A DNA stretch of 64,000 bases from Haliotis rubra (taxonomy: Eukaryota). The notes beneath the pieces were generated by a model. That model had not been told where the DNA came from, ran no database searches, and worked only from the letters and a program-made list of their open reading frames with translations. The stretch is from NCBI RefSeq assembly GCF_003918875.1, contig NW_025766962.1, positions 1,116,001-1,180,000 of the forward strand, read 5' to 3'. Position numbers and translations under genes: made by a program. This document shows, in pieces, positions 244 to 53,700 of the stretch (position 1 is its first letter; each line of letters starts with the position of its first letter).

Positions 244-753
244 TTAAGTTGTACCTACCTTTCTCGCTACATTTTCCGGGAAGCGCAGGTTTCTCGCTGA
301 TGCAAATGTATATTTTTGGATGTAGATGATACCTCCATCGATCTTGATTGAAATCTTTCTGGAGATAGTGTCCTTTAAAGTGACATAGGACACGTTTGGG
401 TTGCCGAACCCGTCGTAGTCATCGTCGCTGTCATCGCTTAACAGGATAACATCGCTTTCGGTTTCGCTGGTAGCGTCATCGTCGAGTTCTGATCTCTGTT
501 TTTGAGTAAGATTACTCAGCGCGTAGACATCGTCATCATCATCATCGTCGTCACAGATCACGATATCAGTATCTTGTGAGGAGCATTCGGGTTCGTTCTT
601 CCAGTTCACCGCTGGTCGCTTTTTCGTTTTCTTCGAAGAAGAACTCGATTCAGCTACTTGGGATGCCTTACGTTTCACACCCCTCTTCTCGACTTCGGCG
701 ACGTCGGCATTGCTGCTAGTGTTGATAGTCTTCTTCTTCTTCAAGATGTCCAT
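244..753 (-). CDS. Acidic/basic nuclear-type protein with NLS-like clusters and two SUMO-interacting-like motifs (putative element cargo)
   Basis: 169-aa ATG ORF with KKKK, KRKAS and KKTKKRP clusters; DIVICDDDDDDD and DVILLSDDSDDD motifs; compact beta-rich C-terminus. Possible donor AAG|GTAGGT near the end. Confidence 0.6.
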   Translation of the reverse strand: MDILKKKKTINTSSNADVAEVEKRGVKRKASQVAESSSSSKKTKKRPAVNWKNEPECSSQDTDIVICDDDDDDDDVYALSNLTQKQRSELDDDATSETESDVILLSDDSDDDYDGFGNPNVSYVTLKDTISRKISIKIDGGIIYIQKYTFASARNLRFPENVARKVGTT

Positions 754-1468
754 GTCGGCGGTGGCGGCGTGTTGGGGTGGTTGGCTGTGTGGTCTGAAGA
801 GAGAATCGGATAGCTTTTATATCGTTACACATAATACAAACACATGAAAAGAATAACAATTAGCGGTGGGACGCGAGAGAGAGAATAACAATAAGCGACG
901 GGGATGCGCGGTGCAGGAAAACATAATTGTTACTAGGGTGGACGGTTTCGGGTCAATAAGGAGGAGCTTATGGGACGTAGGTGTTTGCACGTGTCTACAG
1001 AAAGGAACATAACGAATACACTTACTCGCGCACGATGTAGATATATTCGGGAAAGATCAATATCCTTTCTCATTACACGTCTCGGTATCTCTTCTCCATA
1101 AACAACTGAGGTTTAACGATGTGTATCGTCAAAAAATACAAGTCCTCTCGAGGGTTTGAGTTAAAGAACCACTAAACTTTGTTTTTTGTTACTCTTTTAA
1201 CCATTACATATGAAAGATTTGTGGTTAATCTTATGCGGAACACCAAATTTATTCTTTAAAAACTTGTGGTTAATTAATACCGAGCGATTAAAAGTGGCCA
1301 AAAAGTCGCCTGCTTCCCTCTCGCCCGCCAACGAAACCACAGACAGGTTACGTAACTCTGTCGCCAGAGCACTGCAGTGACGTCATATGAGGAACGATTT
1401 TCAGTTAGGTGTATAGAAAGTGTGTAGCACGCTCATCATTTTGATGATTTCTCGACATGAACGACGAC

Positions 1469-4699: not shown

Positions 4700-5402
4700 T
4701 CATCGCGAGCGATGCGGTGTTGTATTGTATGTACCCACTCTGATAGCTGCTCCTTTAATTTGTTCAGATTTGTTTCCACTGATATTGTTAAAGGATTCGT
4801 CTCCTTTTTCTCTTTTAAAGTCCTGTATGAATGCCGAGTATTCATCGCGTGAGCGATATTGATATAGTTCGAATTGCTTAATGTTTCGATCTTCAACTTG
4901 ATCTGTGAGAGTTTTCATGTTGGTCCATACTGACAGCGGAGTATCCAAAAAGAATACGTAGTTACAGTTCCATTGTGGAAAGTTTAGTTTAGCTTCCTCT
5001 GCTTTACTCAAGACGTAACGCTCACTGAATGGTGTCATGTTGAGCATTTTGTATAGGGTTTTGGTGAATACCTTAGCCTAATGGATACCTTTCTCCATCA
5101 AAACGACATCATAATCCTCTATGGGATTCTCACGATATGCTTTACCGATGGAATCCAGTACGTGCAATTGAAATGCAGTGGAGTTCAGTTGAGGGTGTGT
5201 GTAGAACTGTTCCAATGGATTCCATTCACTTCCCGAAACAAATATAAAAAATCCCGAAATGTTGAAAAATAGTCTCTACTGGTTCGAACAGACATAATGT
5301 TCTATTCGTGCCTTGACTGATATCATCCGTGTAGTTGCGTAGAAGAGTGCTTTTACCGCTTGAAATAATGCCGTCGAGAGAAATAACTATAGGTCGCGAC
5401 AT
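4700..5402 (-). pseudogene. Deoxynucleoside kinase (dNK/TK2-dCK family) pseudogene
   Basis: P-loop ISLDGIISSGKSTLL and FEPVE; after a frameshift NPLEQFYTHPQLNSTAFQLHV, VVLMEKGIH* (ERS-like motif with a stop) and YVFFLDTP; intronless. Confidence 0.85.
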
Positions 5403-10708: not shown

Positions 10709-11663
10709 TATTTCTGTACTGTTTATATTGGTATAAATTAAGCTTTAAAGAAACCGTACTACTGTTTTGACAAATATTGATTTTTGAAGTTATATTTAGA
10801 ATATTAATATAGATACTGTTCAAGCATTAATAGGGATCGTGGAATGTTTCAAGTTAAACGTTTGAGGCTTGAATGACATAAAATCATGAATAACGAATGA
10901 CAGAAAGCACATGCAGTGATTGAGTCAACCGTGATGCTTGAGAGCATGGCGGGCAGGTGCACTTGCATGTTTCGAAGGTTGTCAGTATTGTAGCTGCAGT
11001 GTGCTAGGGATTCACAGACACGCTACTGAGCCCATAGTTGTGACTGCTGTTGTCTCACCACCTGTATGTTCAGGCGTGGCCCTCAACGACCACCTAGGTT
11101 TAACGTAAAGGCACTTCAGGGACAAATCCATTGTTATCAGATCAACTGTCTCTCTAACAGTACTATGTGATTCGTTGTAAAGCATCATGTTACTTATGTC
11201 ATTAAAAACGCAATGGTCCTTGGCAAATATTGTACAGTATTCACAGATACATACATTAATATTATGACACTGGCACTCGAGCAACAGAAGGGTCGACAAT
11301 CGAAATCTCCGTAAATACAGTTATGTGGGCACTGTATTGACCTGTATTAGTGGTATTGTCACCTACATATAGCTGTTCATATCTTCCAGATTACCTGGTT
11401 CAGTGCGTGGACTCCCCCTATGAGACTCGTGAATCTACTGTTAACCGTAACATGGAGATGACATATGAGAAGTACAGATCAGAAAAAGACCTGTTTTGGT
11501 CTGATATACCTCACGAAAAGGCCACAATGGTGACCAAGAAGAAGAAAACTAAACGCAAGAACATGCACTTGCGGACACCTAAACTGTGGGGCAGTTTAAT
11601 GCAAACACCACGACATGCATTCAGGAAGAAGAAAAAAGTCACAAGTCACCATGTCCCAAAGGT

Positions 11664-11989: not shown

Positions 11990-12856
11990 ACATATTTGAT
12001 GTAAAAAGATATTCTATTCTTCATATGGCGCAGAAATTTGGGGTTTACATACACTTGGAAAATTAGAAATGGTACATTTGTATGCCTCTACAAAGTTTTT
12101 GGGTGTTAAACAAAACACTCCAAATATCATGATCTATGTAGAATGTGGCAGGTTTCCTTAATATCTATATATACTCTTATTGGAAAGCAATTCGGTATTG
12201 GATACATTTATTAAACATGCCAACCTATCGCTTACCCAAAAAATGTTATAGAAAGATGCTTTTATATGATAGAAATGGACAAAAAACTGTATGACTGATA
12301 TAAAACAATTATTATTTTCTACTGGATTGGGATATATTTGGCATAACCAAGAAATTGGAACACATCCGGAATTCATCAAATCATTTACTCAAAGACTAAA
12401 AGATATGTATTTTCAAAACTGGCAAAAAAGATTATCTACTTCAAGCAATATCCATACCGAATTCTATCTGTCATGTTTAAATGTAAAAAAGCATAGGGTA
12501 AGTTTAAGATGCTCATCTCATGAACTTTTAATTGAGAAAGGTAGATATGTAAATACGAACAGAGAACATAGAACTTGTCAGTTATGTTATTCAAATGCAA
12601 TTGAAGACGAGTATCATTTTCCTCTTGTAGGCCCTAACAACAATAATCTTCTAAGCAAATATATATATGCCCATCAAAACAGGCTTAAGTTTTCACTACT
12701 TCTAAACAGTTCAAATACTGAAGAAATTGAAAACCTGTCCATGTATATTTTCTACGCATTTGTACATAGAAAAGCGAATTTGTTCATTGAACGTGTATAA
12801 AGCAATTGTACATAGTGTACTATAGGCCTGAGGCCTTTTGAGTACCAGAATAAAAG
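11990..12856 (+). mobile_element. RTE-X-like LINE 3' fragment (degraded ORF2 C-terminus)
   Basis: YGAEIWG..FLGVKQNTPN..ECGRFP, then LRCSSHELLIEKGRY...RTCQLC...EDEYHF; AATAAA at ~12848. Confidence 0.75.
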
Positions 12857-13148: not shown

Positions 13149-13479
13149 AAAATCTGTTCAGAAGAAGACACATCATTCCTCGGTCATGTTAGGGATGTGG
13201 TATATAGACCAACTGATGATGACACATTCCCTTTGTATGTGAAATCAAGAAACACATACAAAATATGTCTGAAAGGAAAACTGAATATGGTTCAGCTCAA
13301 AGAGGCTATTGAATACAAAGACAGCATTCCTGCAGATCTACAGATGCTGACTCATCATGGCAAACTGATACGGCCATCCACACTGAAGAACGTGCAGCCA
13401 AATGACACAATCCATGTCATTGTAAGGAACAAAGGAGGAACGAAAGGCGCTGAAAAGAAACCATTACTTAAGAAAAAAG
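13149..13479 (+). CDS. Ubiquitin-like domain exon of the SAMD9-like gene (ends ...HVIVRNKGG, then a basic linker)
   Basis: LYVKS..QLKEAIEYKDSIPADLQMLTHHGKLI..DTIHVIVRNKGG aligns by eye with ubiquitin. Acceptor TTTCAG at 13148; the phase-1 donor G|GTGATT at 13479 matches the phase-1 acceptor at 14747. The initiator Met/first exon was not identified. Confidence 0.75.
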
Positions 13480-13643
13480 GTGATTGATGCACTTCTTCAT
13501 GGCTGAAATTTCAAATGCTTTTTCGACCAATGAACTCCAACATAAAATTTGTTTCTGAAATTCCATTTCATTTAAATACCTTTAAACGATTTGGATTTTT
13601 TTCTTATTCAAATGGAATAGATGTAAACGTTGCTTAGAAAGTA

Positions 13644-14527
13644 CGAGGGTCAATCAAAAAGTACCTAGCCTAACTATATTCTCGATGTCCAATGTTTGAA
13701 AAGCTTCCATTATATTTCGAAGGAATCGTTACCAAAGCCATATCCAAACTTGAGTAATGTGTGGGTAATGTGGTTAACCAGATATTTGTCATCACAACAC
13801 ATTGGTGTACAGTATTTCTAACAATATTGCAGAAAATGAAAAACGGTAAGCCCTCAGATAATGCCAGATAAAATATGTTCAGTATAGTATTGGATGACTT
13901 CCCGTCATGATCAACAATCAAAGATTTGGACTGCCTGATTTATACTTTGTCGGGGGCTATCTCTTAAGGACACACCCATTTTAATCTTCAAAAACATTGT
14001 GTCCAGATATTCAAGCTGGCACTTTTTACAATGTATTGTGAGCTGACACTTGAGTGACCATTCAGTATTTAGTTTGAACCCTTGTCATCATGTATGCATA
14101 AGTGAAAACATTAGAATAATGTCCTTATGATTACGTCATCTGAAAGGTAGTGTCTCCAAAACAAGCTCTTTCGGTCAACATGAAGGGGGGTGGGGGTGTC
14201 ACTTAAACCAGCGATTGTATTTTCAAATTGCTTATTTATGAACTTTAATATCTAAGTGTCATTCTAGGGGACTTCTATCAATCTCAAACACACAACATAT
14301 TTCCTGCATATTTTGTTTCCTGAAGTTTTTCATGCATTTATTGTAGATTTTGCGGTTTTTGAGGGTACCAAGGGAAAAGGTCAACCAAAATGGGGATCGT
14401 GAGACTGGAACATAGCAAAACAAAATTGCTTGTGCTTGACAGATAATATGTAGAAAAATAAAACATAAAAATAACTGCATTTGTATCGTTTTCTTGGTGA
14501 TTCTACATACGTTTTGATCGCCCCTCG
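13644..14527. mobile_element. mariner-like non-autonomous element in the SAMD9-like intron
   Basis: TA|CGAGGGTCAATCAAAAAGTAC ... ATACGTTTTGATCGCCCCTCG|TA. Confidence 0.7.
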
Positions 14528-14746
14528 TACATGAAGTTTTCTACAGTTATATATTAATTCTTGCACATTTATATAATGCGAAAGAGTATGGAAAATTAGG
14601 TACTTATTATACATAACAGTTACTACTATTGTCCCTAAATTCACTTTTTGTTAAGTGTCCAATTTGCATATTGGAGGTGTACTGCCGTGACACTTTTATA
14701 TTTAATTCATATATAATATTTTTCACTACTTCTGTTTATGTTAAAG

Positions 14747-17700
14747 GACCAGGCTTGCCCAATACTGCAACAGAGGAAGAGGTCCAGGAGTGGCTATTAC
14801 GCAGCGTGAAAGTACCTAAACAGTTGATTAAGGATGAAGTGAAATACGTAAATGGGGACATGCTCAATGAATACACAGATTCCAATGAAATGAGAGAAGA
14901 ACTTGGACTTCCCATGGGACTTTGTAGGAAAATTCTATATTTGAACACCAAAGAATTTGATGATAAAACATTTGGATTGAGTAGGGAACAACTGGAATCC
15001 TTTACACCAAATCACATATGTGATTTTGCAAGAGATTCTTTTGCGGAAGACAAAAACCTCGGTAAGATTATTGAGGCTATTAAAACTGAACATATTGATG
15101 GTTTTGTAATAATGTTATATGAGAATCATGAAATGCTTGCTAAGGACTTGAATATTAAAAAGGTTTTAGGTAGGAAATTATTACTGTATGTAAAGAAGAG
15201 GATGAAGGATAGCTCAATGACTACCACAACAACAATGCACTTAAATGAAGCAAGTGACACACGACATATTCCATCCCTTGGTTTGAATCAGAGGAAGATT
15301 CCATCAGCAGCTGATACAACAAGAGAACCTTTCGCAGAACTACCTAGTCATACCCCTAATGCTTCTTCAAGTACTTCCTCACCAACTGTGGAAAGTCCTT
15401 CCATTACCTTCATACAGGAACACTTAGGATTAGATATTAAAGAATACGTTGGTGAAGATAATCCGAATGAGTACCAACTACTTGCAATTCACAGTTCCTG
15501 GGAACCAAGTCATGAACTGGCTCAAATGTTTTTATTCTGGATTTTATGCAAAGGAAACGACTTTGAGGACACGTCTAAGAGAAGGAAACTTTGGAGTTTG
15601 ATTGTCCAGAATACATCGACTTGGTTACAAACTTTACCTGATAAAGTACAATCTGATTTCAAGAAAGGGAAAGGTGAATATCAATTTCAGTTCAAAGGAC
15701 GAAAATCGATCCGTCTGAGCCAAGTTGGGGAAAAGATGATCAAATATGAAAACATAACTCTCAAACAAAGAGATCACTACAAAAATCATATTCTTATTTT
15801 GCCTGGAAGTACTGCTCCAGTCCAAGACCATGTGTATAGAATATATGATGGAAATTACCATTTGGAAGCTTCAATAAAGGATATCACAAACAAAATGTTT
15901 TGTATTGACGATACATTGACATGTATCAAACCTTTGAGTTTTGACCCCACTCCCTCAGAAGAAGGTGAACACCAAGAGAAGGATCTTGGTCTAACTTATT
16001 ATGGTGAAATGAAGGAAAAGTATGGAATATCAACACATGTTTCTAAAACAACTGCTAATACAAAAGCCCAGGATGGAGTGTCATTTCAGAGACCAAGGCC
16101 ATTTAAACTGGACAGTCTTTGCACAGTATATTTCAAGGATTATGTTATGGATGTGACAGAAAGTGGAAGTGGAATGATAACACCGTCCTTAGAATTCAAA
16201 TACTTTCGATCAAGTCTTGATACTGGTAACGAAAACAGTCCAATAGAAAAATTTCTCACAGAGACTTTGCGTTTTGCCTGTGGTTGCCTTAACAGACGTC
16301 GAAATGGAACCATCTATTTTGGAATTGCTGATGAGAAACCTGTTGGTGGAATTACACGCAGGCATGGTCAGATAGTGGGGTTCCCCATCATAGAAGTTGA
16401 CATTGACAGTAAAATAAAGTACGCAGATGAACTGAATGAGGCCAAATCAAAATGTTTTGACTCACCATTAGCAAACAGCGCTGCAAAGGAATGTATCAAA
16501 GCACCCGTTTTTGTGAAGGTTGCCCCTTCACCAGACCAGGTTCCATTGTTTGTTATGGAGGTTGACATAGAGCCTGATTCACGTTTTTGCGAAGGCATAA
16601 TTTTCAAACTGGATTTATCGAAAATATGTGGGAAGAAACAGAGACCATTCCTGTTTGTTCGTGATGGACCCGAAACAAAAAAGATTGGTACTGATGCAGA
16701 AGAACTACACTTTGTAGACAAATTGAAGGAATGGGACAATAAGCGCAAATTTGAAGAAGAACGGTCAGTTGATAGACATTGGTCCGATCAAAATGATCAC
16801 AAATATTTGGCTGAAAAACTCTGTCGTAAATTATGCAAAACTAGCAACCAAATTGATTCTTCACTCTGGCCAATTCTAATTTCTAGCAAGCCACCAGATG
16901 CATTAAAGTCATCACTGTTTACTTCTCTTAGTTTCATCTCAAGCATTCCTTGGTGTGCAGTTTTTGATTTTGATGAGGAATCGTTTAGAAATGGGATGTG
17001 CAAGCATTTTTTCAACAGTACACAAACAACTCTAACAAACGGAGACATATTCCGAGATGTTGAGAACAACAACATTTTGAGAGAACGATTAAAACTCCCA
17101 GAAAACAATGTGCTGATATTTTGCAATGGGCGATCTGAATTTCGAATGCCTCACCTCACAAAACATGAGTGGAAAAAAGAATACTCCCCAAACGTTAAAG
17201 GAGCAATAAACTTTTTTCAGCAAAAATCAGTTATTCCACCTGGAAGAACTATTGCGGTGTTTTTACTCTTTGCAACGGATTTTCATGGTTTCTTGGATAT
17301 CTTTGGAGAGATGACAACATTCTTTGGAAGTGAAAACATTGTACTTATTTGTGAAGAAATAGGCGTATTTCAAGAATTTCAACGCATGGCTTTAGTTCAA
17401 GAAATTGTCGAGAAAGAAGACATTGAACGGAATTGTGTTGTTGGCATGACGTGGGAGCAGACCAGTACTTCTATCAACAATCTAATAGGTGTTGACAAAC
17501 AAACTGTAACATCTATACCAACCAGCAGTGGAGCACCTGTAACAGCTGAACTAAAATTTCTAGAAAGCATCGACAGTTTACAACTTTTGAGTTACTCACA
17601 ATGCGAGGACAAAACATTTGAAAAACTATCTGATAGACAAACATTTAGTAGAATGAAGGAATTGAAGTTTTATCAAGGTAACAGGGTTGAGTGGTGGAAT

Positions 17701-20574
17701 TTCTTTTTTGACGGACATGTCATGGAAAGACATTGCTTTCGTAGACTGAAATCTAAAGTTTTTGATGCCCTCAGTGGAGAAAAAGCAGACAAAATATCAA
17801 GAATTGTGCCTATATTTCTTCATCATGAACCGGGTGCAGGCGGTTCAACTTTAGTAAGGCATGTCCTTTGGGAGTTTCACAAGGAGTTCAGATGTGCAAT
17901 CATCACAAAACTGGAGGAAAAGACTGCTTTAGACATACTTTCATTGTGGCGTTATAAAGAAAAGGACATCAAATACGCCAGACCTCTGTTGCTACTTATT
18001 GACTCAATAGTGGAGCAAAAGTTAGAGTTGCATGACATCCATCACCTCGTGACAAAAGAATCTTGGAAAGTTGATAGCCACATGAGATCCCCTATATGTG
18101 TTTTCCTCGTTTGCAAAAGAGATGAAACCCTAAATATGCCTCAGCGAACTCTACGACAAGAGGTATCTGAGAATGAATACCTGCTGCAGAAGGTAGAAGA
18201 CGGTGAAAAAGACTGGTTGACCATGAAGATACAGCAACTAGAAGACACAAGCAGGGATTTGGGTCTCACACATTTCAAAGGAGAATATTTTATTTCCTTC
18301 ATGATTCTACATTCAGACTTTAAACAGGATTTTCTCAGAGATACAATTCGCAGTTTGATGAGCCGAATGGAGTTTGAGGACAAGTCATTCAAGCTGCTGG
18401 CTTATGTTGCCCTTATCATATCATTTGTAAGTCCCCCAAATGGGGGTGCAGCCATAGCGATTCCTGTTGAATGTTGTAGTGAACATATGGGATTTAACTC
18501 CAGGATGAACAACCAGTCCAGAAATCTTTCCCTTTGGGAAAACCATCTTGAAGGCCCTTTAAAAATATTATTGATAATTGAAGCAAAAGAAAATGGCAGC
18601 GGAAAACAGATACGAATGGCTCATCAAAATCTGGCAAAAGCTGTGATAGAATGCATTCAATCTAAATATTTTAAGAATGATCTAGCCAGTATTGCTACTG
18701 CTTTCCTTGACTCAGATCTACTCAAAACTTCTTCCTTTGCCAAAAAATATTTACATCGGCTATGTGTTGAAATGCTCATACGACGAAAAAAGGAAGAATA
18801 TGAAGATGGTGAAAATACAAAGTTCAGTCCACTTATTGAAAGCATTATTAGTGAAACTAAACTGTATTCAAAGGGTGCAAACGTTTTAGTTAAAGGATTT
18901 GAGCTGATGCAAGATGGTTTCATTGCTCATCAACTGGCACGTTTACATCTTCATCACAAAGAATACATTTTGGCCAAAGAGTGGGCACAAAAGGCAGTGG
19001 CACTGGATCCAAAGAGATCCACCTTCTTACACACGTTTGGATGTGTCTACAAACATCACTTTCTGAATCTGAAGTTGTGGGAATCAACAGATAAGAGAAA
19101 ACCAGACGATCCCAGTACGACAGATGCATTAGATATGGCACTAGGTGCATTAGGCCATTTCCAAAACGCAAGCACGTGTGACAAATATGAGAAGAACCTC
19201 TTGGCATATTTCGATACTCTTTCAACAGTCAATTGCATTGCTAGATTTCTCTGTGAAATTGTTAACATTGGCACACCTGATGTTGTTCACAGATATTTGA
19301 CTGAAGACAGTTACTCTCCAGAATCTACTGCATCCTGGGAAAACTACCATTCAAGACTTAAGGCTTTGTATGACACAGCCATGGGTGCAGTCGGTGTGTT
19401 AGATGAACATATTTACTACAGTCAATGTTCTTATGTATCTAAATATAGCCATCAACAAAATGAAGAACACAGAAATTCGAGGATTATTAAGAAACGTCTT
19501 CCTGACTCCTTTCAGGATTTTGTAAAGTTCTTTTGCCAAAGAGAAAACACAAATGATCCACCATCCTATATCAGATCGGATGTACTCATGGACGGATGGC
19601 ATAGAAGGTGTGTTGTGGCTCTGCATGGAAAGAGGCTGGTAGATGTCTTCAAAATTGCCTTCCCTAAAACTGAACAGATACACGAGAGTGTGCACTACAA
19701 GGGGAACGCTAAGAAAAATAGGAAAGGAGAAAAGCCTGTTCCCTCTGATAGCCTATGGAGGATTCAAACACATTTAAAGAGCATAAAAGATAAAAGTGCG
19801 GAAGACTGTTTGACTCTTATAGCTGTTAACCTTGCTCTGGCTGAACTAAAAGCTGCAAAGCAAACAAGTGTTTCAGAACTGTATGGGTATTGTCTTCAGA
19901 TAATACGCACAGAAAGAAGAGGAATCGCGTTAAGCATGGCCTATCTTTATATTGTGATGTTTCTGTGGCCACAGGTGAAACAAGTAGTAGCATATGATCA
20001 CACACTGATGAAGGAGGCTATGAAGTTCTTGTTTGATGAATTCAGAGCAACCAAACAGCGAAAACCAAGAGGTGAAAATGAGTTATTCAAACGAGAAAAC
20101 AATATTTTTCAGAGCATTGCTCTATTCTATTTAGCTAAAGGTAGAGGTCTGTCATCATTTTCCTATCACCTCTCGCCCCTGTTCCTTAAAAGGAAACAAC
20201 AAGAAGAAATGTGGGAAAGCTACCAAGTTAGAGAAAAGCTACAGTTAGTACGAGGCTACACAAGACTAAAACCAAACAGTGGCACAATAAGTGTTATCGT
20301 GGACTTGAAAGACTTTGACATAGATGAAGAGCTAGAATTACGAAATTTCAAATGCAGGCGACCGGAAATGACTGAGAGACCGATTTCATTCTACCTGGGA
20401 TTTTCATTGTCTGGCCCTGTCGTGTGTTACATATGCCCTGAAGAAACGTCTATGGATCAATGGCAACTTGCTTCAGCCTATGTCGATTATTCCGTATTCC
20501 CAGAGGAAAAGCTTCGGCAGTTGCTGAAAGACATAGAGAAAATCAAGGCAAAAAGAATCCGGCGCTCAGAGGAG
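14747..20574 (+). CDS. SAMD9: SAMD9/SAMD9L-like antiviral STAND NTPase, main exon (SAM-SAM-unknown-AlbA2-SIR2-like-P-loop-TPR-OB)
   Basis: AlbA2 motifs PRPF..TESG..LEFK..ETLRFACGCLNRRRNGTIYFGIAD; IPWCAVFDFDEES; degenerate Walker A HHEPGAGGSTLVRHVLWEF; C-terminal ISFYLGFSLSGP. Uninterrupted 5.8-kb frame, acceptor TTAAAG at 14746, donor GAG|GTAAAT at 20574. Confidence 0.93.
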
Positions 20575-20792
20575 GTAAATATGCACTCCATTTACTAATT
20601 AACAATATCATTATTGTTAATACATCCTTCATAAAAGATATACATTCACTATGTGTGATATCATTATGAGAAACTATATTTTTGGAGAGAGATGAGATAG
20701 TTTTATGAACTTTTATTAAACTCTGTGTTGGACGTGTGAATCTACATATGCTGTGATATGTATATGTGGCATCGTATCCCTCCTAATTTCAG

Positions 20793-20870
20793 ACAGACCT
20801 CTTGAAGGACGAAGCAGCAATCAATGAAGCACTATTTAGATATGAATCGGAAGAAGCCATCATTGACTAA
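20793..20870 (+). CDS. SAMD9: SAMD9-like gene terminal exon (TDLLKDEAAINEALFRYESEEAIID*)
   Basis: Acceptor CTAATTTCAG at 20792 in phase 0, matching the donor at 20574; open to TAA at 20870. Confidence 0.7.
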   Translation, partial: TDLLKDEAAINEALFRYESEEAIID

Positions 20871-21037
20871 AACCTGTGACATATAAAACGCCTGGATGAT
20901 ATGAAAAACAGGTTTTGTACTTAATTCCAAGAGTGTGCAGTTTGGTGAGTGAGTGTCTTTAATTCCTCCCTGATAAATAGGAGATATAATGAGGTGAGGC
21001 TGGAAAATGTTTGAGTTAATGAGGTGAAAGGGAGAGT

Positions 21038-21652
21038 TTATGTCTGATGATGTCCAAAATGTCCAACCTTGATCGCAAGTGACTTGTTGTCAAAGTGAAG
21101 TTCATGTCCACCAAGGAGAGCTAGAGTTTGACTCTCAGGGTCCATAGTGTCCAGTGTCACATATGTGTCAGGTCTAAAGACGCCAAGTACGGACTTCCAC
21201 ATGATCTCTCTGCTCAAGAGAACAGATGTAGGGCCAGGTTGTCCAGAGTCACAGTGAGGACACCAGCTTGCAACTATGGGTGTGGCAATCAGGCGAAGCA
21301 AGCGGTAGTATTCACTTCTGTGTTTTGGGTCGTACTTGCTGAGGACCCACAGATAGTGGGGAGAGAAGTAGCTGTGTAGCTGCGAGAACACGTGCAGGTC
21401 AGGGTCGTCGTTAAGTCTATGTCTCGGCGAGTTGGCTTCAAATGTTAGCACTGCTTCCTTAGCGCGATGTTTCCAGGAATGTTTAGAAACTCTCAGACCG
21501 TTGTATGCAGAGTTCAGAAGGTTAGAGATATCGTAATGTCCACAGCCGCGCTGATCTGTGTTGTTCAGGTGGCAGATGGAGAATCGAAAGAGGACAACAG
21601 CTTTAACTGTGCACGGACTTGGATAAGTAACATTTCGGCCAAAGAGGATGAT
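21038..21652 (-). CDS. Orphan 204-codon open frame (unknown protein or terminal exon)
   Basis: Stop-free frame from 21652 to 21038, longer than the ORF-track call; GC content above the flanks; no recognisable motif; no ATG near the 5' end. Confidence 0.35.
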   Translation of the reverse strand: MILFGRNVTYPSPCTVKAVVLFRFSICHLNNTDQRGCGHYDISNLLNSAYNGLRVSKHSWKHRAKEAVLTFEANSPRHRLNDDPDLHVFSQLHSYFSPHYLWVLSKYDPKHRSEYYRLLRLIATPIVASWCPHCDSGQPGPTSVLLSREIMWKSVLGVFRPDTYVTLDTMDPESQTLALLGGHELHFDNKSLAIKVGHFGHHQT

Positions 21653-29679: not shown

Positions 29680-30044
29680 CTGAAAATTAAGTACAATCAA
29701 TAGCTGCAGCTGGGCATTAACAATCAAGTCTGGAACAGATAATCACTGGATTATCTGGACTGAGACAAAGATGACAAAGAATCAAAATAAAACCATAATG
29801 AACTTCTTTTTAAGCGCAATAACTCTGCAAAGATAACAAGAGAGAAAGGAAAAACTAAGTGAAATATACGAATGCTGTTGAACATTAACATTCTATAGAT
29901 AAATGTGGGTAGTAGTGTGTTCGGCCTCTTCGTGGTATTCCAGCCGAATCAAACTATGGTACCCTAGGTTAACGCGTCACGCACTGGACCCATGTCAGGT
30001 GTATCAGAGCTGCGAAGATGAATACAGCGAGGTGTTTCACTTAC

Positions 30045-30781
30045 TTTGGGTAGCTGTAAGACAAGTGAGAGAACTGATACAGAACATAAGGCTCTGGCTG
30101 GAGGCCGCACTTGAGGATAGCAGCGTTGACAACAGGGGCTGAAACAACAGCGGTCTTTAGACTAGGAGACGTTGTCAGGGCGCTGGATGAAGCGGAGAAC
30201 GGCTCGGGAAAATCTGGATGTGGCATAGCAGGGAAGTCGGGTTTAAGGGAAGCTGCGCTAGGTATAATGTCCTTGACAATACCAGAAGCTGGAGGAGCTT
30301 TGGGAAATGTGGAGGCTGGTAAAACGTCATGGACGATAATGTTTGAGCTTGGGACGACGTCATGAACAACGTTTTCGGAAAATGATTTAGGTATGATGTT
30401 ATGGATGACGTCGTGAACGATAGCATCAGATCCGGATTCAGGTACAACGTCGCGAACAACGTCTACCACATCAGATGATAAACCTGTGACAACATCTACC
30501 ACACCACTATTGCCGGGATCGGGAACAACATCTTTTACAACGCTGTTTGACTGTGGATCGTGGACAATGTGGATACCGTCACCACCATGGACATCGACAG
30601 GGTCTTTAATAAAGTCGCCATTTCCACCTACAGCGGAGTGATCAGGCACAACGTCGATGACATCACCTGGATTCGGTCCAAAATGTCCCAAGTCTCTAGG
30701 ATGAATCTGGGAAGACACGATTCCAACGAGGACAGACACCAGTAGAACGTATGCCTGCAACAGTTTAGGGATAACAATCAT
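30045..30781 (-). CDS. Spaetzle-like precursor, signal peptide and Asp/Val/His/Pro-rich repeat prodomain exon
   Basis: Hydrophobic signal AYVLLVSVLVGIVSS; repeated (V/I)V(H/K/R)D(V/I)(V/I)P units; strong donor AA|GTAAGT at 30045. Start is the ATG at 30781 or an upstream mini-exon via TTGCAG. Confidence 0.7.
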
Positions 30782-31102
30782 GATTTTATTCGAGACATTG
30801 AAATCTTGTAAATTTGCATTTTGTGGAAATATGAGTTGTAAAATTGAGTTAACTTGGTGTGAAATGTTATTGCAGTCATCCACGCCGGTGTTGTCAGTGC
30901 CGGCCACAGGCTCTCTAGACACTGTTACAACTACACCATGGAGGCGATCGTATTGTTGTAATATTCTTCCTATAGGAACAGAAGGTTTGTTACTTTGAAA
31001 ACGCGATCAAATAATACACTATATAATTCAGACTTGTAAAGGTCAAAGACTGTATCACTGTTTTCCCGCCACTACCAAGCTACCACGTCATCTGATCAAA
31101 GC

Positions 31103-36194: not shown

Positions 36195-39100
36195 TTACAC
36201 CGGGTTGCCACTTTTAGAACTGACGACTTCTCTATGGGAGACGTCCTCGTTACTGAAACTGCCGTGTATCACGTTGTCAGCGGAGTCTCTAAATGTATTC
36301 ACTGGGAATAGTGGACTGCCTTGTGAACTCGTCTCGGGTGTACAGGACATTGATGAAACCTCGTCCTCACTCTCATTCAACATAATGTGCTTGATTTCGT
36401 CGTCTTCGTCTGTGAACGCAGCGTCCTGAACATCCCTGAGAAACTTGTCCAGCTCCCCCTGTCCTCCAAGCTGCTTGTCCAGCCAGTCTTTGGCCTTGTT
36501 TACCCCCAAGTCCCACACTAGACGTTCATTTGGGCATTCCAGTGTCAACCAGCAAATCGCCAAACCAGTCGCCCATACCTTTAAGTCCTGAACAAAAAGA
36601 AGGATGTGTATGTAATACTATGTATGTGTTGAGCTGTTATTAAAATCGACTATTTTTGTGTCTAACATGTCTTAGCCGCCAGCCAGTTCACCTGAATGGG
36701 TGCTGGGTTACAGCTGGACGGAGCAGTAGGTCATTACTAGTTTCTTTGCTTCCGTCCACATTTGGTTATATAAAGAAAACTTAGACAGGTAGGGTATTGA
36801 TTTAAATCACTCACAGTGCACACTGCTATCTTTATCAGTCTGTACCGATGTACATTGATGAGACAACAAAGTGCCTCACTCAGCATCCAAGCGCCGTCAT
36901 CCTCCTGCAGTGTCACCATCTCACTCGCTGTGGGCGAATCTGAACAACTCAACACGTCATGGCTGATACACGTTGGATCTGAATTATACCAAAGGAAAGA
37001 TCAATGGTAAAAGTTAAAGATTTGTATCCTTATTTGTCGTACATGAACATATTTCAGATGTATGCTCCCCAGGGAGTTGAGATTGACAATACGATGTGCC
37101 GTTGAGATTGACATCCAGTGAACGAGGGAAAAACAAAGCGCCTTTGAGCAGCTGAGCTGAGCTGGATATCGGCGCTATACAAATGTTAGTATGTATGTAT
37201 GTATGTATGTAAATAAGCGAATAACAGGCAAATAACCCACACCACCTCTGTGACATGTCACATGTTTATGATAGTCAATGTTCAGAATACTGTTGACGAA
37301 TGAGGTGACGTATGTCAGGCCATGTCGTGTTAAGAAATAACAACCGTACATCTGTTTGATTTCTGGCCATGATCAATACATCTGTAACTGAAAGAAACAG
37401 TTGACATCGGGGATTGTAAGTGAACGACTTTCATAATTCCAGTTAAAACATGGTTTCACATGTTGGATGAAAGCCTAAAGACCATCCCTTCTGTGATCCC
37501 AACACGTACGAGCTGCCACACCAGAGTGCATGACCAGTGCAGATTGAACCAACGTGTATTGGATTCAGTCATGAACAACAGATACAACAAATTCCGACAC
37601 CTTAGACGACCTGTGTGTTAAACCATCAGGCGACTGCTGTCAACTTCGGGTAATGTCAAAGCCTACACTCACAGAAATTATTGTTAAACAAATGAGCATT
37701 GTATAGAGCCGAATACAAGATTAGAAACAGAATGTGTATTGCAAATCAAAATGTTTCAAATATATGATTCTATGTCACTCATTCTTTACAACGTTAACTG
37801 TATTGTATTGTAATAAGTTTCTGCGTTATAATACGTTTGAAATACGAAAAGCAGTAAATGACGATGGAAGGCCACGTGTATGATAAAGACAGGTTGATGT
37901 TGTCACCCCTGTATTCGTATACCGATGTAGCCAGGTTATGTATTACCTTCATCAGTGGTCTCTGCTACATCAGCTTCAGTTGCACTGCAAGAGACATCCA
38001 TACACTTGTCTGACTGTTTAATCAGCGTAACATACGACTTACAACAAGTTAAAAATACCGGATTCTTCATAGCATGACATAATTATGTTTTATTTATAAA
38101 TTATTCATAATTTATTTATGATTATTCTTTGGTTATTAGTTTGTACCATATTGCCTTTTACACTTACAAGACCAGGTGTACATATTATGATTATCATTAT
38201 TGTAACGGAGATATAGTGAAACCTTGTTAAATCGGACGGACTAGGCTCCTTGTGACTGACTGACTGACTGAGTTTGGTTTTACGCCGCTTTTAGCAATAT
38301 TCCAGCAACATCATGGCGGGGGACACCAGAAATGGGCCTCACACATTGTACCCATGTGGGGATTCGAACCCGGGTCTTCGGCGTGACGAGGATCCTTGTG
38401 AAAACGTTAAGAGTAACACATTTCGGGAATACCGGGACACTTGCATTTAGAAGCCATCCTTTAACTGTCGCATATTGGATAACAAACAATTACCGAGGTG
38501 CCACAGTAGAAGTATTTTTCACACAGTTATCCGAAAGTTAAATAGTAATTATAAACAAAAATAATCACGATTATGGACACGCCAAACCTTACTCGGGAAT
38601 CGTTCATACCTCATGTCCGTACGCGTTATCTGACGTGTAGCGGGCTGGGGGTGGTCCTCGGTGGTCAATACGTCCACACCAACGAATGACGTGTACTTTG
38701 AAACTACATTACCCGACATACTGGCAGCTACTATCTCATCCTTCTTCACCCCGCCGAACTCTGTGAAATAAGTCATACATACATGCTGACTATTACTGCT
38801 ACTAATACTAAATATCATCTGCATAAAACATTAATTGATTACAAACAAGTTCGCCAGAGAAACACCCTATCCATCATTTAATACCTAATATTCGTATCTA
38901 AGTGGTGCTGGTATACATAGATGAGAAGACGGGTGTGGAGGGGCAGAGTCGAGGGGTGAGGTACGTTGTGAATATGCTCATATTTCCAGGCGATACTTAC
39001 AGGGTTGAATAGTTGTTCCATGCAATACTATTGTTTTGTTTGTGTGTTGTCTCAAGCCTCACTCAGAAATATTCAAGCTATATGACGGCGCTTTGTAAAC

Positions 39101-42100
39101 GTTTGATGTACGTTTTTTTTAAAAATAGATAATGTGTTTGGTTTTTTGGTGAAATAAGGTGTGGTGTGTGGAGTGTGGAGTGAGGTGTGTGGAGTGTGGA
39201 GGGTGTTGTGTGATATGTTTGTCATGTGGTGTGATACGTGGTGTAGTTGGGTGTGGAGTGTGGAGTGAGGTGTGTGGTGTGATATGTTTGTCATGTGGTG
39301 TGATACGTGGTGTAGTTGGGTGTGGAGTGTGGAGTGAGGTGTGTGGAGTGATATGTTTGTCATGTGGTGTGATACGTGGTGTAGTTGGGTGTGGAGTGTG
39401 GAGTGAGGTGTGTGGTGTGATATGTTTGTCATGTGGTGTGATAAGTGGTGTAGTTGGGTGTGGAGTGTGGAGTGAGGTGTGTGGTGTGATATGTTTGTCA
39501 TGTGGTGTGATACGTGGTGTAGTTGGGTGTGGTGTGTGGTGTGTGGAGTGAGGTGTGTGGTGTGATATGTTTGTCATGTGTTGTGATACGTGGTGTAGTT
39601 GGGTGTGGAGTGTGGAGTGAGGTGTGTGGAGTGATATGTTTGTCATGTGGTGTGATACGTGGTGTAGTTGGGTGTGGTGTGGTGTGTGTGAGTGAGGTGT
39701 GTGGTGTGATATGTTTGTCATGTGGTGTGATACGTGGTGTAGTTGGGTGTGGAGTGTGGAGTGAGGTGTGTGGAGTGATATGTTTGTCATGTGGTGTAGT
39801 TGGGTGTGGAGTGTGGAGTGAGGTGTGTGGTGTGATATGTTTGTCATGTGGTGTGATACGTGGTGTAGTTGGGTGTGGAGTGTGGAGTGAGGTGTGTGGT
39901 GTGATATGTTTGTCATGTGGTGTGATACGTGGTGTAGTTGGGTGTGGAGTGTGGAGTGAGGTGTGTGGTGTGATATGTTTGTCATGTGGTGTGATACGTG
40001 GTGTAGTTGGGTGTGGAGTGTGGAGTGAGGTGTGTGGAGTGATATGTTTGTCATGTGGTGTGATAAGTGGTGTAGTTGGGTGTGGAGTGTGGAGTGAGGT
40101 GTGTGGTGTGATATGTTTGTCATGTGGTGTGATACGTGGTGTAGTTGGGTGTGGAGTGTGGAGTGATATGTTTGTGATGTGGTGTGATACGTGGTGTAGT
40201 TGGGTGTGGAGTGTGGAGTGAGGTGTGTGGTGTGATATGTTTGTCATGTGGTGTGATACGTGGTGTAGTTGGGTGTGGAGTGTGGAGTGATATGTTTGTC
40301 ATGTGGTGTGATAAGCGGTGTAGTTGAGTGTGGTGTGTGGTGTGAGGTGTGATATGTTTGTCATGTCGTGTGATACGTGGTGTGTGGAGTGAGGTGTGTG
40401 GTGTGAGGTGTGATATGTTTGTCATGTGGTGTGATACGTGGTGTAGTTGAGTGTGGAGTGTGGAGTGAGGTATGTGGTGTGATATGTTTGTCATGTCGTG
40501 TGATACGTGGTGTAGTTGGGTGTGGTGTGTGGAGTGTGGTGTGTGGTGTGATATGTTTGTCATGTGGTGTGATACGTGGTGTAGTTGAGTGTGGTGTGTG
40601 GTGTGAGGTGTGATATGTTTGTCATGTGGTGTTATACGTGGTGTAGTTGGGTGTGGTGTGTGGAGTGAGGTGTGTGGTGTGAGGTGTGATATGTTTGTCA
40701 TGTCGTGTGATACGTGGTGTAGTTGAGTGTGGTGTGTGGAGTGAGGTATGTGGTGTGATATGTTTGTCATGTCGTGTGATACGTGGTGTAGTTGGGTGTG
40801 GTGTGTGGAGTGTGGTGTGTGGTGTGATATGTTTGTCATGTGGTGTGATACGTGGTGTAGTTGAGTGTGGTGTGTGGTGTGAGGTGTGATATGTTTGTCA
40901 TATGGTGTGATACGTGGTGTAGTTGGTTGTGGTGTGAACTGTGCAGTTTCATCTGTTTGTGAGGAGTGTGAGGTGTTGCAGTGTTTTGTTGTTGATGGGA
41001 CGTGTTATGATGTGATGAGGTGTGCTGTGATGTGAACTGTGCGTGGTGATGTATGTGTTCAATGCCGTGTCCTTGTACCTGCGTTATTACCTTTGTCGAT
41101 GACTTCCAGGTGTTTGATAAGAGCGTTGATGGCCATCCTGTGCATGTATGTTTCAGACGTGGTGACCGCGTCCCTGGAGACGTCGAACGTCAACGTGTGC
41201 GTGAACCCCTTCTCCCCAATCCTGCCAGAGACTCTGGCTGTTCCGATAGATGGCGTGTGACGATCAATCTGTGTAGAGAACGTGAGTGAGTGAGTGAGTT
41301 TGGCTTCCCACCACTTTGGGTACTTCTTCAGTAATAACCCGGAACATCTGCTTGATGCGGAGGAAAGTCTGAAGTGATGCAGTTCTTAAGCTTTCACCAT
41401 GTCACGAGTGTTCACAAACCATAAATCGTAATAGGGCGAGTGTATTGTCATATCTTGTCCCATCCTCCAGTGTAGGCTTTCTTCATTATGATAAATACAA
41501 TAGACCCATTCAAATATTACTTCGAAAGTGACTTCTCAATCTCGTTTTTCTCGTCACCTCCCGCTCATGAGAATAATATGATAATTGTTTATAATGTCAT
41601 CTCCATTAAACACAGCTGGGGTAGCGAATAGGTTCATAAAACACAGAACGAAGATAGAGACCCTGGCACATCGATGATGGTATGGCATGGATTCGACATC
41701 CATGGTTTGTAAGTGCATGCATTACTGGCATTGGTGTTGCATAACATCTGCTCACTCAATTACTAAAATATAGAAGCACCAAGATATTATTACAAGTATT
41801 TTATAATATCGGTATGTTCATACTCTTGAAACAGCACGCTGGTTTACCGTCACGCCAAAGTCGTGGGATCGATCCTCGTCTTGGTTAAATTCACGAAGCC
41901 TCCTTTTGATATTGGTTCTATATTGTTAAAGCAGGGTAAAGCCATACCCACTCACTCACTGTTACAACAGTTTCCCTTGACACATACAAGCAACACGAGA
42001 TCTGTTTAATCTGAATCTCTGCAACCAAGATGGTAATGACAACATACAACACTGCCATGTCTCACCTCCCCATCCACAATAGCATAAACTGTGTATCTCC

Positions 42101-52453: not shown

Positions 52454-53700
52454 TAGACTAACGGGCAAAAGAAACGATACCAAGTCGAAATCACTGATAT
52501 TACAAACCACCATTGTGAAAAAGGACAGTGAATTTTAATAATAGGTGTATGGGCAACATGAACTCGGTCATTTCATTGGAGTAGCAGCAATAACAAGTCC
52601 ATTGAGTCAGTGTATAAATGAAGGAATGAAGTGTCCAGTATTCGATCACAGATGTAAACAATACAACATACGTGGTCAGTGTCTGGTATGCCCACTGTGG
52701 GCATCAACTCTACGACGTGCTGAGAACGTCAGACGCCGTATACCTTGAGGGGTCCTTTGCCATTCCTCTTGAAGGGCTTGGACAAGCTGACGTCGGTTAT
52801 AACGGCCCCAGCACGAATCTGACGATCCAAATGGTCGCACAAGTGTTCAATTGGTGACATTGACGTGGAGGGCCAAGGAAACACATTGATGTTGTTTCTT
52901 TGTAGAAAATCCATGACAATATGTGCTGTATGAGGACGCGCGTTGTCCTGCTGGAACATGATCCGGTTACGGCGTTGGCGTAGGAATGGTAGCACAATCG
53001 GACGCATAATTTGATCAATGTATCGTTGAGCAGTGAGATTACCATCCACCACAACAAGATCTGTCTTCATACCGTCACATATGCCGCCCCAAACCATGAC
53101 ACTCCGCCACCAACGGTTCCACTGCCTGTACACAGAAACGTTGCACACGTTCTCAACGGCGTCTGTTGACACGAGCCCTACCATCATTCCTGAACAGCTG
53201 GAACCTGCTCTCGTCTGAGACCATCACTCTCTGCCACTATCTACTTTCTGTTTTGCCACTGGCGAACTGTGCGTGCCCATCGAAGACGTTGATTTTGATG
53301 TTAAAGCGTCAGCCGTACACCACGGTAGGGTCCGTAGGCGCGGATACCGTCGTGCTGCTGTTCGTTGACTGATAGGATGTCCAAGCCCAGTCGCTGCTGA
53401 TGACGTCACAGGTAGGAAACGGTTTCTTCCACTTCTTGGCCAGTCTACTGTCCGCCCTGTTTGCCTGCAGCGTGTCATCAGCCTCGTGATGGCTAGACGT
53501 GTACAGCCCAAGGTCGCTGCTACATGTGCATGAGTGGCACCCATCTGTACCATCCCAATGTCTCTCTCTGGATTCCTGCGATAATCAGGGCATGGTCGCT
53601 GAAGTTGACTTGAAGGTCTGATGTCGAGGAAGTTTTGTGTGCACTCTTATACCCCAATGATGCACGTGCTTCAAGCAATCCGTTCACGAGACTTTCGTGC
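52454..53700 (-). mobile_element. Tc1-like element with transposase pseudogene (~53590-52685)
   Basis: HVAATLGCTRLAITRL..RQTGRTVDWPRSGR; SVMVWGGI..GNLTAQRYIDQI..FQQDNARPH..WPSTSMSPIEHL; frameshifts. Confidence 0.9.

What the first reader, a model, noticed from the sequence alone, without database searches (positions are those of the whole stretch)
13149..20870. Ubiquitin-like domain with a diGly end fused in frame to a SAMD9-like antiviral nuclease-STAND protein
Seen: the Ubl exon ends ...HVIVRNKGG (GG at 13434-13439), then TKGAEKKPLLKKK. Its phase-1 donor (13479) joins the phase-1 acceptor (14747) to give KKK-G-PGLPNTATEEEVQEWL, the first SAM domain. Known: mammalian SAMD9/9L begin with a single SAM domain, and ubiquitin precursors are cleaved by DUBs after the diGly. 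Inference: this is a Ubl-SAM-SAM-X-AlbA2-SIR2-STAND-TPR-OB protein. Its Ubl could be clipped by host or viral deubiquitinases, acting as a protease tripwire or releasing an ISG15-like conjugable modifier, and exposing a basic NLS-like N-terminus. I do not know of a described SAMD9 with this architecture.
Basis: partly seen in the sequence, partly recalled or inferred. Interest (0 to 1): 0.85.

Follow-up and report, generated by a model that had tools for sequence, protein, structure and literature searches.

The report
Clip-off ubiquitin leader on invertebrate SAMD9
This abalone gene encodes a relative of the human antiviral tRNA-cutting protein SAMD9 with an extra front section, a basic stretch plus a ubiquitin-like domain ending in Gly-Gly, that is kept in molluscs, acorn worms and corals and is likely clipped off by a host protease to mature the protein.

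Summary
The Ubl exon (13149-13479, GG at 13434-13439) and the 1,942-codon SAMD9-like exon are real and splice-compatible. The Ubl is not N-terminal: a missed exon (11390-11661, Met 11452) adds a basic leader, giving a 2,148-aa protein with GG at residues 166-167. RefSeq models of three Haliotis species contain the junction. Continuous contigs of relatives do too; reads of this species did not settle it. The GG is conserved: 50 of 50 Ubl-bearing homologues among 236 examined keep it (22 distinct tails; molluscs, hemichordates, corals), while the Ubl itself is only 14-74% identical. All seven tRNase residues of human SAMD9 are present. Best reading: an SDE2/FUBI-like precursor whose 167-aa leader is likely removed by a host Ubl protease; cleavage is untested. 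A viral Gly-Gly-X protease tripwire remains open. My searches found no description of this architecture. Verdict: new variant of a known family.

The parts
11390..11661 (+).
   Evidence: the motif is shared with bivalve homologues; two matches in G000, own and duplicate contig
13149..13479 (+). Ubl exon (phase-0 acceptor, phase-1 donor)
13224..13439 (+). Ubiquitin-like beta-grasp domain ending R-N-K-G-G (GG 13434-13439 = residues 166-167)
   Evidence: Pfam PF00240 26.3 bits; PDB sequence match; AlphaFold2 and Foldseek
13440..13479 (+). Predicted new N-terminus (Thr) and disordered basic linker; not conserved outside Haliotis and some hemichordates
14747..20574 (+). Large coding exon, 1,942 open codons from 14749
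   Evidence: covered by RNA-type contigs of three runs
14773..15210 (+). Two SAM-like helical domains (approximate limits)
   Evidence: SAM1 five-helix model, pLDDT about 90; Pfam SAM strong in hemichordate and coral homologues, weak or absent in abalone; family profile hits SARM1 and Polyhomeotic SAM
15391..15945 (+). Domain X: folded alpha/beta domain of about 185 aa, found in 64 of 110 homologues, absent from vertebrate, amphioxus and Littorina members; weak likeness to the YbaK/ProX tRNA-editing fold
16135..16761 (+). AlbA_2 / tRNase-SA domain with equivalents of human E184, E196, E218, D241 (16159, 16192, 16261, 16330) and K198, K214, R221
16762..20574 (+). SIR2-like, STAND NOD (Walker A HEPGAGGST at 17824), TPR and C-terminal OB-position region
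   Evidence: OB not detected from the window sequence alone
20793..20870 (+). Last coding exon, TDLLK...AIID stop
   Evidence: same end as P0006 and P0102; X1 contig 7 stops at 20572 with 155 unlaid letters

Best explanation
The gene encodes a SAMD9-family STAND protein with an intact tRNA-nuclease site and a 167-residue basic leader ending in a ubiquitin-like domain and Gly-Gly, and a host deubiquitinase or Ulp/SENP-type protease likely cuts after that Gly-Gly, as for SDE2 and FUBI-eS30. Shown: the architecture, the fold, the exposed tail, and GG invariance across three phyla. Inferred: the cut would free a 19.6-kDa, pI 9.9 leader (with an RRM-like domain in bivalves and corals) from a 229-kDa SAM-SAM-X-AlbA2-SIR2-STAND-TPR-OB body that starts with a small or Met residue. 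The leader would act as a maturation gate, likely setting where the toxic nuclease sits (the basic leader would favour nucleus or nucleolus) or how much of it accumulates. The nuclease would then be switched on through the usual SAMD9 core, not by the cut itself.
For: GG follows the Ubl in 50 of 50 Ubl-bearing proteins of 236 (22 distinct tails). In a held-out set scored with a profile lacking the tail it was 25 of 25 among 123 proteins, six of the tails new. G-G are the only invariant Ubl columns in 11 sequences, with Ubl identity to the window at 14-74%. Among other ubiquitin-like domains found by the same profile, 356 of 577 had GG. Molluscan tails keep GG while dropping ubiquitin's P4 Leu (0 of 16 molluscan-type tails, against 343 of 356 in the background), so the GG is not just a leftover of a recent ubiquitin copy. 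The tail is unstructured and the Ubl does not pack on SAM1 (pLDDT under 50 at 81-97, pTM 0.43). P1' is Met 13, Thr 3, Ala 3, Val 2, Gly 1 of 22 and never Pro; these are stabilising N-end residues (recalled). P5 is K/R in 16 of 22, the position required for SDE2 cleavage (R73). Precedent: SDE2/USP5 and FUBI/USP36. Human SAMD9 156-1589 is autoinhibited by core contacts, and high concentration may favour opening, so control of amount or place is plausible.
Against: No cleavage was observed or could be tested. Ubiquitin's L73, R42 and I44 equivalents are replaced in molluscs, so ordinary ubiquitin USPs may not read this Ubl; in SDE2 the L73 equivalent gives about half of the cleavage. The sequences are related, so 50 of 50 is not 50 independent events, and the background set is itself GG-rich. 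Some annotated homologues lack the Ubl in their models (P0022, P0031, P0377), and four other SAMD9-like loci in this genome showed none within about 9 kb upstream. The junction was not listed for RNA contigs of this species, and RefSeq splits this locus into two models (P0101, P0006). The scallop protein keeps Ubl-GG but has lost most nuclease residues. The role given to the leader is inference only.
Confidence: 0.57

Rival explanations
1. Pathogen-protease tripwire: the Ubl-GG is a decoy that host proteases leave alone, and a viral Gly-Gly-X protease or viral DUB cuts it during infection and so unleashes the nuclease.
For: The tail departs from ubiquitin at P4 in molluscs yet keeps GG. ASFV protease sites carry a Gly-Gly-Xaa signature, and an abalone asfa-like virus encodes a homologue of that protease. 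The body is a STAND immune protein with an intact nuclease site. The linker after GG varies fast (55-65% identity within Haliotis against 81% for the Ubl).
Against: The Ubl is among the better conserved parts within Haliotis (81% against 64-77% for the SAMs), which is not what a decoy under an arms race usually shows (recalled from NLRP1/CARD8). Human SAMD9 is autoinhibited without any N-terminal leader. One motif kept from corals to hemichordates fits a conserved host enzyme better.
Confidence: 0.17
2. The Ubl is an integral, uncut domain (proteasome or adaptor binding, or a folding aid), and the GG is kept as a flexible hinge.
For: Loss of the ubiquitin R42/I44/L73 equivalents. Glycines are common in linkers, and the region is disordered.
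Against: A hinge would not need two glycines in exact ubiquitin register in 50 of 50 proteins while the neighbouring linker is free in length (GG to first SAM Trp 20-36 residues) and sequence. In the background set 221 of 577 Ubl-like domains lack the GG.
Confidence: 0.15
3. The released leader-Ubl is an ISG15-like modifier that is conjugated to other proteins.
For: A free C-terminal GG would result. A short RRM-Ubl-GG isoform is annotated in Crassostrea angulata (P0349, 342 aa). Ubl-exon depth exceeded that of the 5' part of the large exon in three contig sets (contigs are a poor measure of level).
Against: R42 and L73 equivalents, needed by ubiquitin E1 (recalled), are replaced. The released piece is 167-330 aa with a long basic leader. 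No dedicated E1 was looked for.
Confidence: 0.07
4. The Ubl exon belongs to a separate transcript and the fusion is a gene-model artefact.
For: The junction is not listed, and RefSeq splits this locus.
Against: The split falls after residue 463, downstream of the junction, inside an open exon. The junction is in models of at least 15 named species. A continuous contig (L014) and a 98.9% identical genomic contig (L016) part exactly at a splice acceptor, with the Ubl-GG joined in L014. Logan contigs give both the read-through and the intron-ended forms (P0011 against P0103 and P0009).
Confidence: 0.04

Closest known systems
Human SAMD9/SAMD9L (STAND tRNase; PMC5445408, PMC10246899, PMC13600222)
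   Same: AlbA_2 tRNase with all four acidic and three basic key residues, SIR2-like, NOD with GG[ST] Walker A, TPR. The family profile aligns over residues 11-1432 of the 1,434-aa human chain.
   Different: Extra basic leader and Ubl-GG, two SAM domains, and domain X. None of the Ubl or X profiles hit the vertebrate members. N-terminal domains reported for the family in the text read are SAM, DEATH-fold domains and bacterial kinase, not a Ubl.
SDE2 (USP5) and FUBI-eS30 (USP36): Ubl-fusion precursors (PMC13572447, PMC8354635)
   Same: Divergent Ubl with GG in ubiquitin register fused in frame before a functional body; basic P5 in molluscs.
   Different: The Ubl is internal, with about 95-250 residues before it. 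P4 is small in molluscs. The body is an immune nuclease. P1' is Met or small rather than SDE2's Lys. Cleavage is not shown here.
ISG15 and other conjugated type I UBLs
   Same: Beta-grasp fold and GG; immune context.
   Different: Tail RNKGG rather than LRLRGG; R42/I44/L73 equivalents lost; long leader; no dedicated E1 examined.
N-terminal 2A-like StopGo leaders of sea-urchin NLRs (PMC4981915)
   Same: A removable N-terminal leader on an invertebrate STAND immune protein. Three of four amphioxus SAMD9-like hits carry a 2A-like motif near residue 50 instead of a Ubl.
   Different: Co-translational, no protease. Amphioxus retrotransposon 2A-like sequences were mostly inactive in the published assay, so the parallel is only suggestive.

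Membership tests
SAMD9 family | AlbA_2/tRNase domain with E184, E196, E218, D241 and K198, K214, R221 | tested here: met
   all seven in the window protein and in 17 of 18 aligned homologues that cover the domain.
SAMD9 family | SIR2-like domain followed by STAND P-loop with GG[ST] in place of GK[ST] | tested here: met
   E 4e-44 to human chains; HEPGAGGST; signature.
SAMD9 family | TPR array | tested here: met
   Weak Pfam TPR_2 (E 0.022); matches to TPR structures; continuous profile match to the human chain.
SAMD9 family | C-terminal OB fold | tested here: inconclusive
   No relevant match from the window's C-terminal 208 aa alone; the family profile does extend to the end of the human chain.
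SAMD9 family | tRNA-Phe cleavage and antiviral activity | not testable with these tools
   Inferred from residue conservation only.
Ubl-fusion precursors (SDE2, FUBI-eS30, Ub-ribosomal fusions) | Beta-grasp Ubl with exposed diglycine in ubiquitin register | tested here: met
Ubl-fusion precursors (SDE2, FUBI-eS30, Ub-ribosomal fusions) | One open frame across the GG into the body, on one transcript | tested here: met
   Open model, RefSeq models, spliced-versus-genomic pairs in relatives; this species' own contigs were inconclusive.
Ubl-fusion precursors (SDE2, FUBI-eS30, Ub-ribosomal fusions) | Ubiquitin-type tail residues read by USPs (R72 at P5, L73 at P4) | tested here: inconclusive
   P5 K/R in 16 of 22 tails; P4 Leu in only 6 of 22 (corals, hemichordates), Asn in the window.
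Ubl-fusion precursors (SDE2, FUBI-eS30, Ub-ribosomal fusions) | GG-dependent cleavage by a named protease | not testable with these tools
Conjugated type I UBL (ISG15-like) | E1-recognition surface (R42, R72, L73 and the I44 patch of ubiquitin; importance recalled) | tested here: not met
   R42 to Met, I44 to Thr, L73 to Asn in the window; R42 absent in all 11 aligned.
Conjugated type I UBL (ISG15-like) | Dedicated E1/E2 in the genome | not tested
   Not searched.
YbaK/ProX aminoacyl-tRNA editing fold (domain X) | Fold match above background | tested here: inconclusive

The most novel reading that the evidence does not exclude
The ancestral animal SAMD9 was a Ubl-gated pro-nuclease (RRM - basic leader - Ubl-GG | SAM-SAM - tRNA-editing-like domain - tRNase - STAND). 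Its Gly-Gly is a 600-million-year-old sensor of protease activity, tripped by viral Gly-Gly-X proteases or DUBs; amphioxus replaced it with a 2A StopGo leader and vertebrates dropped it.
Probability: 0.15. Interest if true: 0.87.

Novelty: new variant of a known kind. Interest (0 to 1): 0.63.

Why it matters
SAMD9 is a toxic tRNA nuclease whose triggers are unknown. A diglycine-ended Ubl kept in front of it in corals, molluscs and hemichordates points to proteolytic control of an ancient animal immune effector. It would add a rare natural Ubl-fusion precursor to SDE2, FUBI and the ubiquitin-ribosomal fusions, with a non-canonical tail that should name its protease. It is testable with one GG-to-AA construct. 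It also bears on disease in farmed abalone, oysters and mussels: a SAMD9-annotated transcript was up in heat-resilient abalone of one population (not shown to be this gene).

Full report
Observation. The Ubl exon runs 13149-13479 between an AG and a GT, the diglycine is GGA GGA at 13434-13439, the large exon starts at 14747 and is open to 20574, and a last exon ends at 20870. The Ubl passes the Pfam ubiquitin cut-off (26.3 against 25.4 bits), its GG aligns with ubiquitin's, and AlphaFold2 gives a beta-grasp with a disordered tail that Foldseek matches to ubiquitin, NEDD8 and ISG15. With Met 11452 the four exons give an open 2,148-aa protein with GG at 166-167, a 167-aa leader (19.6 kDa, pI 9.9) and a 1,981-aa body. 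The first 463 residues equal NCBI model P0101 and the last 1,638 equal P0006, both named Haliotis rubra. A near-identical copy on contig C2618 has a full-length model, P0102.

Is the fusion transcribed? For this species it is not shown. No run was on record as RNA. Contigs of three RNA-type runs cover the exons, but the joints table was taken up by repeats and did not list the junction. Relatives give better evidence. Logan contigs encode the read-through form (P0011) and the intron-ended forms (P0103, P0009) with the break a few codons after GG. Of 7 metagenome loci, 2 reached the Ubl region, and both had Ubl-LKGG. One, L014, is a continuous frame that is 98.9% identical to genomic L016 up to an exact splice acceptor. 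The other five began within about 1.3 kb of the SAM exon or downstream of it.

Conservation of the leader. The Ubl-GG precedes the first SAM in proteins named from Haliotis (3 species), Mizuhopecten, Saccostrea (2), Crassostrea (2), Mytilus, Potamilus, Sinanodonta, the hemichordates Glandiceps, Saccoglossus and Ptychodera, and the corals Pocillopora and Montipora. My first set of 14 was picked by a GG pattern, so I rebuilt the profile without the tail. It found 22 Ubl-bearing proteins among 110, all with GG, and 25 among 123 later-fetched proteins, all with GG. Over all 236 the count is 50 of 50, in 22 distinct tails; these are related and include the training rows. Many apparently Ubl-less hits were single-exon calls whose clusters hold longer Ubl-bearing members. 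Some models do lack it (P0022, P0031, P0377), as do four distant paralogous loci in this genome. As background, 356 of 577 ubiquitin-like domains from the other hits had GG, with Leu at P4 in 343 of 356. The SAMD9-linked tails have P4 Leu in only 6 of 22, P3 K/R in 20, P5 K/R in 16, and P1' always Met, Thr, Ala, Val or Gly. The basic segment is conserved before the Ubl, not after it. Bivalve and coral proteins begin with a weak RRM-like domain; none was found upstream here.

Mechanism. An invariant GG in ubiquitin register, on an exposed tail, in a domain otherwise free to drift, is best read as a protease site (inference). The nearest precedents are SDE2, cut by USP5 with a need for GG and the R72-equivalent and a partial need for the L73-equivalent, and FUBI-eS30, cut by USP36. 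I put constitutive or regulated host cleavage at 0.57. The changed P4, R42 and I44 positions suggest an enzyme other than a generic ubiquitin USP and argue against conjugation (0.07). Human SAMD9 lacking its N-terminus is still autoinhibited and may open at high concentration, so the leader more likely governs place or amount than the on-switch. A viral tripwire (0.17) has some footing: asfarvirus proteases cut Gly-Gly-Xaa and an abalone asfa-like virus has one. Against it, the Ubl is well conserved within Haliotis (81%). An uncut Ubl (0.15) and an annotation artefact (0.04) remain. Three of four amphioxus hits carry a 2A-like motif in place of the Ubl, as sea-urchin NLRs do, but amphioxus retrotransposon 2A-like sequences were mostly inactive when tested.

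Literature seen. PMC5445408: parts 1-2 of 4 and a term search of three supplements, with no 'ubiquitin', 'UBQ' or 'Ubl', although a Saccoglossus protein is annotated there from its SAM at residue 194; its Figure 1 could not be seen. PMC12680541: term passages, 'ubiquitin' 0 and 'mollus' 0; supplements not searched. PMC13245274: passages and section 3.5. PMC13572447: passages and half of one section. Passages only: PMC10246899, PMC4981915, PMC3708506, PMC8354635, PMC9910796, PMC8728581, PMC5405107, PMC13600222. PMC12338488 and PMC13405545: no SAMD9 or amphioxus terms. Searches listed no paper describing a Ubl on SAMD9; only the top 13-20 rows of each were seen, and subscription journals are missing. 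Databases do already flag the domain automatically (PF00240 on P0019; UniRef names of P0190 and P0203). Recalled without a call: N-end rule classes, E1 determinants, and fast evolution of tripwire linkers.

Verdict. A real, conserved and apparently undescribed architecture of a known family: new variant of a known kind, interest 0.63. Cleavage, the protease and the role of the leader are inferred, not shown.

Noticed in passing
P0065, P0068, P0076, P0113 (amphioxus SAMD9-like proteins, residues 45-60): A 2A-like StopGo motif (GDVEENPGP) after a hydrophobic leader sits where other invertebrate members have the Ubl-GG leader; these proteins also lack domain X.
   Followed up: partly
window 15391-15945: Conserved folded domain X between the SAMs and the tRNase, co-occurring with the Ubl-GG subfamily, with weak but repeated likeness to YbaK/ProX tRNA-editing domains.
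   Followed up: partly
P0019/P0107 (Mizuhopecten): Keeps RRM, Ubl-GG and the STAND core but has lost most tRNase catalytic residues: a possible nuclease-dead paralogue.
   Followed up: no
G000:C2618 (L009-L010): Second copy of the locus, 99.87% identical over 12.8 kb, with one extra A in a run in the first coding exon; likely an alternate haplotype or a consensus error.
   Followed up: partly
P0004 with P0007/P0008 (H. rufescens); P0190, P0203, P0125: Several annotated relatives stop just before the AlbA_2 domain, leaving leader-Ubl-SAM-SAM(-X) proteins; frameshifted assemblies, split models or real truncated paralogues.
   Followed up: no
P0349 (Crassostrea angulata isoform X2, 342 aa): Annotated short isoform with only the RRM-like domain, basic region and Ubl-GG plus a short tail.
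   Followed up: no
L022 (10 kb before the window) 109-2322; window 244-816 and 4700-5077: ORFs with a weak Pox_A32-type ATPase hit (E 0.0027, below cut-off); a likeness to Polinton-type elements is recalled, not tested.
   Followed up: no
L005-L008 (G000 C2223, C2322, C1847, C2406): Four distant SAMD9-like loci (29-33% in AlbA_2) with shorter open frames and no Ubl found within about 9 kb upstream.
   Followed up: partly
window 14953-15699 and 20414-20882: Contigs of runs X2 and X8 at about 89-92% identity suggest a divergent allele or close paralogue not found in the G000 searches.
   Followed up: no
window 48269-49637 (-): Exon-sized pieces of a VIT-domain gene (Pfam VIT E 3e-4).
   Followed up: no
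window 52729-53646 (-); 12273-12800 (+); 21038-21652 (-): A DDE_3 transposase with an HTH piece; two further ORFs that look like retrotransposon fragments (recalled likeness), one inside intron 1.
   Followed up: no
window 30041-31006 (-) and 39073-41004: Val/Asp/Pro-rich repetitive ORF with a hydrophobic stretch, and a strongly skewed tandem-repeat region.
   Followed up: no
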